A DNA stretch of 64,000 bases from Eledone cirrhosa (taxonomy: Eukaryota): the NCBI GenBank assembly GCA_964016885.1, contig OZ024753.1, forward strand, positions 3,286,001-3,350,000. Reading direction: 5' to 3'. The notes under the pieces were generated by a model, which worked only from the letters and a program-made list of their open reading frames with translations, did not search any database and had not been told where the DNA came from. Below are positions 13,880 to 14,525 of the stretch, piece by piece (the stretch's first letter is position 1; each line of letters starts with the position of its first letter). The translations under genes and the position numbers were made by a program.

Positions 13880-14335
13880 ATATATATATATATATATATA
13901 TGTATATATATATATATATATATATATATATGTATATATATATATATATATATATATGTATATATATATATATATATATATATATGTATATATATATATA
14001 TATATATATATATGTATATATATATATATATATATATATATATATATATATATATATATATATATATATATATATGTATATATGTATATATATATATATA
14101 TATATGTATATATATATATATATATATGTATATATATATATATATATATATATATATATGTATATATATATATATATATGTATATATATATATATATATG
14201 TATATATATATATATATGTATATATATATATATTATATATATATATATATATATATATATATATATATGTATATATATATATATATATATATATATATAT
14301 ATATATATATATATATATATATATATATATATATA
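13878..14335. repeat. Long (TA)n microsatellite
   Basis: Direct inspection. Confidence 0.95.
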
Positions 14336-14525
14336 GATGAGATTCTACAGGACTAGAACTGTTTCATTCTTTAGAAGTCATCAGGAATCAGAGATTCCTG
14401 ATGATTTCTAAAGAATGAAACAGTTCTAGTCCTGTAGAATCTCATCTATATTAAAACTTTTATACTCTGCAATGTATTGAGTACCTTACTTACTGTGGTT
14501 ACCTCCGATTCAACCCGGAATAACG
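14331..14525 (+). mobile_element. Fold-back hammerhead-bearing element inside a (TA)n run (probable Penelope-like pLTR remnant)
   Basis: Arms 14331-14389 and 14393-14451 (one mismatch, 3-nt loop) plus a ~75-nt unpaired 3' tail; homologous to 55245-55443. Confidence 0.75.
14391..14443 (+). ncRNA. Type-I hammerhead ribozyme fold
   Basis: Stem I GAGATTC/GAATCTC (7 bp), CTGATGA, stem II TTC-TAAA-GAA flanked by a U.U pair, GAAA, stem III ACAG/CTGT with loop TTCTAGTC, GUA triplet (predicted cut after 14436). Confidence 0.8.

What the first reader, a model, noticed from the sequence alone, without database searches (positions are those of the whole stretch)
14331..14525. Best-formed hammerhead: type I, both polarities, inside a long (TA)n run
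Seen: GAGATTC-CTGATGA-TTTCTAAAGAAT-GAA-ACAG-TTCTAGTC-CTGT-A-GAATCTC has an intact core, 7-bp stem I, 4-bp stem III with a CTAG palindrome in the loop, and a GUA site. The mirrored arm gives an almost identical ribozyme on the minus strand. The pair closing stem II is Y.U instead of the usual R-Y. The rod with ribozymes of both polarities superficially resembles viroid-like RNAs, but a PLE inverted pLTR is the simpler explanation.
Basis: partly seen in the sequence, partly recalled or inferred. Interest (0 to 1): 0.7.

Follow-up and report, generated by a model that had tools for sequence, protein, structure and literature searches.

The report
Penelope stub marks RNA start site
This 195-base mirror-shaped insert is one of thousands of short end-pieces of a young Penelope-type jumping gene, not a viroid-like RNA; its two arms likely record one uncut messenger RNA copied from two fixed points back to its very first base, where a predicted self-cutting motif begins.

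Summary
The hammerhead motif and its mirror copy are real. The locus is an ordinary stub of a young Hydra-clade Penelope-like element (PLE): 8,070 exact hits of its tail, about 2,100 head-to-head copies, and a 6-kb parent with an intact 712-aa RT/GIY-YIG-type ORF. It is not viroid-like: the junction is remade at each insertion and a read-through RNA folds into a 59-bp rod that removes both hammerheads. U.U closing stem II is common in Hydra PLEs (14 of 25). The seventh stem I pair comes from the junction. The copies together add mechanism: 42 of 46 palindromes have one long and one short arm; 5' ends pile up at the first base of stem I, 30 nt behind a TATA box, not at the cleavage site. In a second family the pile-up follows the TATA box, not the ribozyme. 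Best reading: two cDNAs primed on one capped, uncut sense RNA. No RNA was seen. The scan noted the two-arm, one-RNA model before on other DNA of this genome.

The parts
13878..14335 (.). Imperfect (TA)n run, left target flank (overlaps the arm end by microhomology)
14331..14389 (-). Short inverted arm: element positions +2 to +60 (+1 = first base of stem I), ending at the proximal 3' end site
   Evidence: short arms end at +60 in 20 and +67 in 26 of 58
14341..14389 (-). Minus-strand copy of the hammerhead motif: 5-bp stem I, C.U closing stem II (private change at 14377), predicted cut after 14346
14390..14391 (+). Junction bases AG, not in the parent at this place; G14391 is a likely copy of the RNA cap (rival: 1-nt fold-back through stem I)
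14392..14442 (+). Type I hammerhead motif, +1 to +51: 6-bp stem I, core, U.U plus 3-bp stem II, 4-bp stem III with palindromic 8-nt loop, predicted cut after A14436; 14392 is the inferred transcription start of the parent
14443..14525 (+). Rest of the long arm, +52 to +134: holds the proximal end sites (+60, +67) and the one-sided tail up to the distal end site
14463..14483 (+). Small bulged hairpin a few bases beyond the +67 end (lead from earlier scan notes; weak fold here, z -1.7)
14526..14587 (.). Perfect (TA)31, right target flank

Best explanation
The locus is a short head-to-head insertion of the hammerhead-bearing end of a young Hydra-clade Penelope-like retrotransposon, likely made when both cut strands of a (TA)n target primed reverse transcription on one capped, uncut sense RNA at two fixed internal sites (+134 and +60/+67) and both cDNAs ran off the RNA's 5' end, which is inferred to be the first base of the hammerhead. 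Shown: family membership, copy numbers, arm ends, junction variety, promoter-like motifs in the parent. Inferred: Pol II start at +1 from a TATA box at -30; two priming events on one RNA; joining of the two cDNA 3' ends by microhomology or a few added bases; the extra G as a copy of the cap. The ribozyme is probably functional in the parent RNA, more likely as a dimer or with protein help, but this copy has no promoter and is predicted to be silent when read through.
For: Parent: full-length copy L101, two hammerheads 5,966 nt apart, intact 712-aa ORF with RWR, DKT, YRDDG, CxCX5C, GIY-YIG-like and CxxC/CxH motifs, matching the Hydra definition. One long plus one short arm in 42 of 46 centre-picked palindromes, none long-long (p 2.6e-9). 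Arms share the loop II allele in 75 of 76 palindromes, 49% expected if independent. Arm 5' ends fall in the same class: 53 both at or after -1, 7 both upstream, 1 mixed, of 61. 5' ends at -1..+10: 39 of 71 tail arms and 48 of 53 short arms that reach there, 0.050 and 0.082 per nt against 0.0013-0.0017 upstream; 0.0034 around the cleavage site. TATA box first T at -30, CCAAT near -82 (1,731 exact hits). Control family: TATA at -30, hammerhead about 40 nt further on, 43 of 71 copies end at -1..+11, 2 between -2 and -89. At TA-to-+1 joints the two untemplated options are G 17, A 4 of 93 (hand count; p 0.007). Where ends differ by 10 nt or more, the short arm reaches further 5' in 16 of 19. In vitro, a Poseidon PLE cuts and extends both strands, starts at two internal sites and uses uncut RNA (PMC11167929).
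Against: No RNA, cap or cleavage was observed. No G excess before +2 (G 4, C 5 of 92), and the G at -1 could come from a 1-nt fold-back through stem I; longer fold-backs exist (47 genome-wide). In the control family only 2 of 7 copies starting at +1 have a G before it. 19 of 23 ORF-start copies that reach the hammerhead pass +1 without stopping (two read by eye), which a linear monomer cannot give: a multimer, a circle or a template jump is also needed. Allele sharing between arms also fits two RNAs from one source copy, or gene conversion. Trimming during joining could make arm ends look correlated. The sequence before +3 also looks like a splice acceptor. Pfam gave only a sub-threshold GIY-YIG hit and no RT family. 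All structure samples come from the first part of contigs C1-C3.
Confidence: 0.68

Rival explanations
1. Same PLE stub, but the 5' pile-up is a structural stop: reverse transcriptase stalls or the cDNA snaps back at the hammerhead, whatever the true RNA end.
For: Stem I is self-complementary in the cDNA, and its fold-back product exists (L037; 47 copies). Mini-arms of 3-5 nt at TA joints show that short snap-backs occur.
Against: Only 47 stem I products against about 2,100 junctions at the 5' end. In the control family the pile-up lies about 40 nt before the ribozyme and 30 nt behind the TATA box. A snap-back of one cDNA cannot give a short arm that reaches further 5' than the long arm (33 against 17). 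Long cDNAs pass the same structure in 19 of 23 cases.
Confidence: 0.14
2. The palindrome arises by self-priming on an antisense template, as proposed for head-to-head PLE junctions in Adineta vaga.
For: Proposed in PMC3846280 (Discussion read) to explain head-to-head palindromes and intron retention.
Against: Both outer ends sit at fixed sense-strand sites, one of each kind per insertion, and +67 is also the 3' end of a full-length sense copy. The centre follows a sense-oriented TATA box in two families.
Confidence: 0.06
3. Two separate RNA molecules, held together by the palindromic stem III of a hammerhead dimer, each template one arm.
For: Intermolecular stem III is predicted much more stable than the hairpin (-12.8 against -1.4 kcal/mol); PLE hammerheads are thought to act as dimers (PMC4209133).
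Against: Two equal RNAs do not by themselves explain one long and one short arm in 42 of 46 or the shared end class.
Confidence: 0.1
4. A viroid-like or retrozyme-like rod that replicates as a unit with ribozymes of both polarities.
For: Rod shape and a hammerhead motif on each strand; 70 loci share this exact junction.
Against: That junction occurs with the tail on either side (9 of 20 on the left) and with three loop II alleles, so it is remade, not inherited. Junctions vary widely. No tandem unit, no promoter in the stub, and the rod removes the hammerhead fold (P about 1e-23).
Confidence: 0.02

Closest known systems
Hydra clade of C-terminal EN+ Penelope-like elements (Craig et al. 2021, PMC8557442; section 11, passages and supplement files S1/S2 read)
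   Same: Single ORF with RW(K/R), DKT, CxCX5C linker, GIY-YIG-like domain without CCHH; (TA)n target; hammerhead in the pLTR; U.U closing stem II in 14 of 25 listed families; ACAG/CTGT stem III with GUA site in three; inverted 5'-truncated copy and one-sided tail (Penelope-13_HM has the motif on both strands).
   Different: A different family from Hydra-1_Obim (other hammerhead, by eye). Unit is 6 kb with a microsatellite-rich 3' UTR against under 3 kb. Loop III has 8 nt against 1-3. Tail is about 70 nt against 30-40. No tree was built.
Poseidon from Anolis carolinensis, in vitro (Frangieh et al. 2024, PMC11167929; parts 1-2 of 4 read; text supplements searched)
   Same: Both target strands extended, AT-rich target, two internal start sites that define the tail, uncut RNA as main template, hammerhead needs protein.
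   Different: There both strands use the same start sites and the sites lie inside the ORF; here the genome shows one site per strand and both lie before the start codon. The parts read do not treat inverted junctions or the RNA 5' end.
[quoted passage not shown]
   Same: Type I fold, palindromic loop III, pairs of motifs on opposite strands close together, expected dimeric and slow cleavage.
   Different: Their consensus keeps G10.1-C11.1 and a short or absent stem III; here U.U and a 4-bp stem III with 8-nt loop. In Drosophila Penelope helix I begins at an intron end; here it begins at an inferred transcription start.
L1 twin priming and cap-derived G (review PMC4859970, passages read)
   Same: Second target strand primes internally and gives an inverted 5' part; untemplated G marks full-length 5' ends.
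   Different: L1 arms do not overlap (recalled) and priming is at the poly(A) tail; here the arms overlap almost fully and both priming sites are fixed and internal.
Non-LTR retrozymes and Avsunviroidae (bioRxiv 10.64898/2026.07.22.740005 part 1 of 5; PMC6765202 section 11 part 2)
   Same: Small, non-coding, type I hammerhead.
   Different: Not a tandem unit, has a coding parent, and the two polarities are one sequence inverted.

Membership tests
Type I hammerhead ribozyme | Core CUGANGA / GAAA / UH around three stems, open at stem I | tested here: met
   across 13 variants picked for an intact motif, 97% of cells pair and stem I has a compensatory A-U to C-G change
Type I hammerhead ribozyme | Core and stems conserved, loops free | tested here: met
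   98 tail-picked copies: mismatch rate loop II 0.153, core 0.013, stems 0.006-0.011, tail 0.029; the family is young, so this reflects a few source variants
Type I hammerhead ribozyme | R10.1-Y11.1 pair closing stem II | tested here: not met
   U.U (plus), C.U (minus); but U.U stands in 14 of 25 published Hydra-clade motifs
Type I hammerhead ribozyme | Active fold is favoured and RNA self-cleaves | not testable with these tools
   predicted monomer fold is 3.4 kcal/mol above the minimum; no Rfam hit; cleavage needs an assay
Hydra-clade PLE | Single ORF, RT then C-terminal GIY-YIG | tested here: met
   712-aa ORF in L101; aligns by eye with the published Hydra alignment; Pfam GIY-YIG only below cut-off
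Hydra-clade PLE | RWK, DKT, CxCX5C, CxxC and CxH, no CCHH | tested here: met
   RWR (K to R), DKT, CNCLNKEAC, CDLC, CMH read
Hydra-clade PLE | (TA)n target, pLTR hammerhead, tandem/inverted structure, one-sided tail | tested here: met
Hydra-clade PLE | Groups with Hydra RTs in a tree | not tested
   published sequences were seen only as supplement text and could not be handed to the tools
Viroid-like RNA / non-LTR retrozyme | Unit propagates as itself, in tandem or as a fixed rod | tested here: not met
   junction remade in both orientations and three alleles; coding parent present
Viroid-like RNA / non-LTR retrozyme | Circular RNA with active ribozymes of both polarities | not testable with these tools
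   no RNA data; rod predicted to block both folds

The most novel reading that the evidence does not exclude
The stubs are a genomic map of the PLE transposition intermediate: an RT dimer uses two fixed sites on one capped sense RNA, one per target strand; on the linear RNA this yields dead promoterless stubs ending at the cap, so hammerhead cleavage and ligation into a unit circle is what lets copying pass +1 and regenerate a promoter, which would be the long-sought job of the PLE hammerhead.
Probability: 0.25. Interest if true: 0.75.

Novelty: new member of a known kind. Interest (0 to 1): 0.45.

Why it matters
The locus itself is ordinary. The family matters because it is young, has an intact parent and left thousands of near-identical records of how it inserts. 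How PLEs make head-to-head palindromes, which strand is the template and what the hammerhead does are open questions in the papers read. The copies give sharp, testable answers: a start site at the first base of the ribozyme, an uncut sense template, one start site per target strand. The same counting can map PLE start sites in genomes without RNA data. [quoted passage not shown]

Tried and rejected
Rfam: no hammerhead match. DNA search with the 71-nt tail found nothing because common words are skipped; a pattern was used instead. RNA evidence: no RNA holder listed; four runs laid as contigs show the family in DNA-like runs only and say nothing on starts or expression. PDB sequence search gave nothing relevant; the Atlas did not hold the protein. 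Splice-acceptor reading of the +1 to +3 boundary (U-rich tract plus CAG, GTAAGT about 500 nt upstream): no shared upstream exon at junctions; not excluded as a second role. An apparent cluster of long-copy ends at -460 to -560 is an alignment limit at microsatellites; they run 0.7-5.6 kb further. Cap G on a +2 start: suggested (8 of 14), not borne out (4 G, 5 C). A twin of the bulged hairpin beyond +134, as earlier notes propose for this clade: only a plain 4-bp hairpin seen. ADAR editing as the source of G14377: 2 of 70 copies, too few. First alignment of variants had wrong minus-strand coordinates and was redone; first allele count had a faulty pattern and was redone. Lunse et al. 2017 was not held. 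bioRxiv supplements are closed and supplement figures of PMC11167929 could not be seen; they may bear on arm asymmetry.

Full report
Observation. 14331-14449 is a 59-bp palindrome (z -21.8) followed by a 76-nt single-copy tail to 14525, between TA runs. Each arm carries CTGATGA...GAAA, a 4-bp stem III and a GUA site. I number the element from +1 = 14392, the A of AGATTC; the predicted cut is after +45 (14436). Hammerhead numbering, the TATA at -30 rule and the CCAAT position are recalled knowledge.

The family. The right arm has many identical copies on many contigs (40 scored of 883 candidates, 98-100% identical rows at the top). A 30-nt tail word has 8,070 exact hits, control 0. Only 85 hits continue into the coding region. 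About 2,100 copies are head-to-head with a tight centre (2,126 forward, 2,101 reverse). L101 is a full-length copy: it starts at -5/-6, has a 712-aa ORF, a long microsatellite-rich 3' UTR and a second hammerhead 5,966 nt on, and ends at +67 in TA. The ORF has the motifs that define the Hydra clade in PMC8557442 (section 11) and resembles the published alignment by eye. Pfam gives only a weak GIY-YIG hit.

The ribozyme motif. In the parent stem I has 6 bp; the window's seventh pair uses junction base G14391. Among 98 distinct copies from the first 100 tail hits on contig C1, variation sits in loop II (0.153 per base) and not in core (0.013) or stems (0.006-0.011). Thirteen variants chosen for an intact motif show a compensatory change in stem I; that sample is selected and related, so it is weak support. 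U.U at the base of stem II stands in 14 of 25 Hydra-clade motifs in supplement S2 of PMC8557442 (hand count). The monomer is predicted to misfold (-7.1 against -10.5 kcal/mol), intermolecular stem III is favoured (-12.8 against -1.4), and an RNA through both arms forms a rod in which stem III has P about 1e-23. So the motif is likely real in the parent and inert in this copy. Cleavage was not tested.

Not a replicating rod. Seventy loci share the window's junction. In 20 of them examined, the tail is on the left in 9 and on the right in 8, with 3 broken or cut short, and three loop II alleles occur. The junction is therefore made again and again.

Outer ends. Tail arms end at +133 to +139 in 96 of 98 (selected for the tail, and TA overlap blurs the last bases). 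Short arms end at +60 (20) or +67 (26) of 58. Of 53 palindromes listed, I examined 46 (7 left out because they were already in the tail-picked set): 38 long plus short, 4 long plus an arm scored 73 through overrun into TA, 2 mid plus short, 2 short plus short, none long plus long. This is the one-sided tail of PMC8557442, here close to a rule.

Inner ends. 5' ends fall at -1..+10 in 39 of 71 tail arms and 48 of 53 short arms that reach this far; the rate per base is 30-60 times that of tail arms upstream, and only 0.0034 per base around the cleavage site. The template was therefore mostly uncut or rejoined, as found in vitro for Poseidon (PMC11167929). The parent has CCAAT near -82 and TATAAATA with its first T at -30 of a C-A step. 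As a control I took a second, unrelated family found in the loci (3,636 hits; its coding parent was not sought). It has TATAAAA at -30 of a C-A step, with its hammerhead about 40 nt further on. Of 71 copies, 43 end at -1..+11, 2 between -2 and -89, 26 read through; ends beyond +14 cannot be seen with that pattern. The pile-up follows the TATA box, not the ribozyme. At joints of TA with +1, the base at -1 is T 55 (target), C 17 (parent), G 17, A 4 of 93 (hand count); before +2 there is no G excess. Untemplated G marks capped L1 RNA (PMC4859970 passages). A 1-nt fold-back through stem I would give the same G; longer ones number 47.

One RNA. Arms share the loop II allele in 75 of 76 palindromes and the end class in 60 of 61. 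Where the ends differ by 10 nt or more, the short arm goes further 5' in 16 of 19, as expected if the enzyme primed at +60/67 runs ahead of the one primed at +134. In 5 of 11 long copies the inverted arm ends at the tail site and both arms run far upstream. These facts fit one template but do not exclude two RNAs from one source.

What does not fit a simple model. Of 30 copies holding the ORF start, 23 reach the hammerhead and 19 of these pass +1, against 27 of 71 in the tail set (p 0.0002). More-than-unit templates must exist: tandem read-through, a template jump, or circles made by the hammerhead as proposed in PMC4209133. AATAAA repeats about 130-150 nt before the 3' hammerhead could end many transcripts short of the 3' start sites, which would explain the 95-fold excess of stubs; this is speculation.

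Comparison and verdict. Inverted pLTRs, tails, TA targeting, pLTR promoters and hammerheads on both strands are all described. PMC3846280 explained head-to-head palindromes by self-priming on antisense RNA and left the sense option open; the counts here favour a capped sense RNA. Earlier notes of this scan reached a two-arm, one-RNA model on other DNA of this genome; I saw them after forming my reading and they are not independent support. Two word searches of those notes for the cap and TATA reading found none holding all words. Verdict: new member of a known kind; the locus is ordinary, the family is a good handle on an open mechanism. Interest 0.45.

Noticed in passing
window 12000-12160: A second, unrelated head-to-head hammerhead pair (CTGAAGA core, palindromic stem III ACAATTGT); the same family lies in L035.
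   Followed up: no
window 55255-55440: Older relative of the 14331 family, also palindromic, plus-arm core decayed, ending in (CA)n.
   Followed up: partly
window 13027-13337 and 13543-13853: 311-nt inverted pair, 94% complementary, of a SINE-like repeat around a TA run; further copies at 11214-11640 and 15095-15520.
   Followed up: no
L030 junction: About 60 nt of another repeat family's tail lie between the two arms, which suggests a template switch between different PLE RNAs.
   Followed up: no
G000:C1:83679821-83691712: Tandem array, period about 1,085 bp, of the promoter-hammerhead segment (12 hits): a possible retrozyme-like derivative of this family.
   Followed up: no
L268, L269: ORF start joined directly to -27 or about -33: internally deleted mini-units or small circles.
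   Followed up: no
L282-L351 (control family): Hammerhead variant with U3-A8 core (TTGAAAA), TATA and CCAAT promoter, at least 3,636 copies.
   Followed up: partly
L038, L043, L091, L123, L232, L233, L279, L280: Other hammerhead families with an ATGCAAAT octamer about 80-100 nt upstream, some in tandem; window 44287-44311 has the same core and stem II type.
   Followed up: no
L015, L022, L028, L213, L220: Short arms that end in (GA)n rather than (TA)n stop at +52 to +56 or +67, so microhomology with the target shifts the end by a few bases.
   Followed up: partly
window 59460-59658: GC-richer tandem repeats of 44-56 bp that look like coding low-complexity sequence.
   Followed up: no
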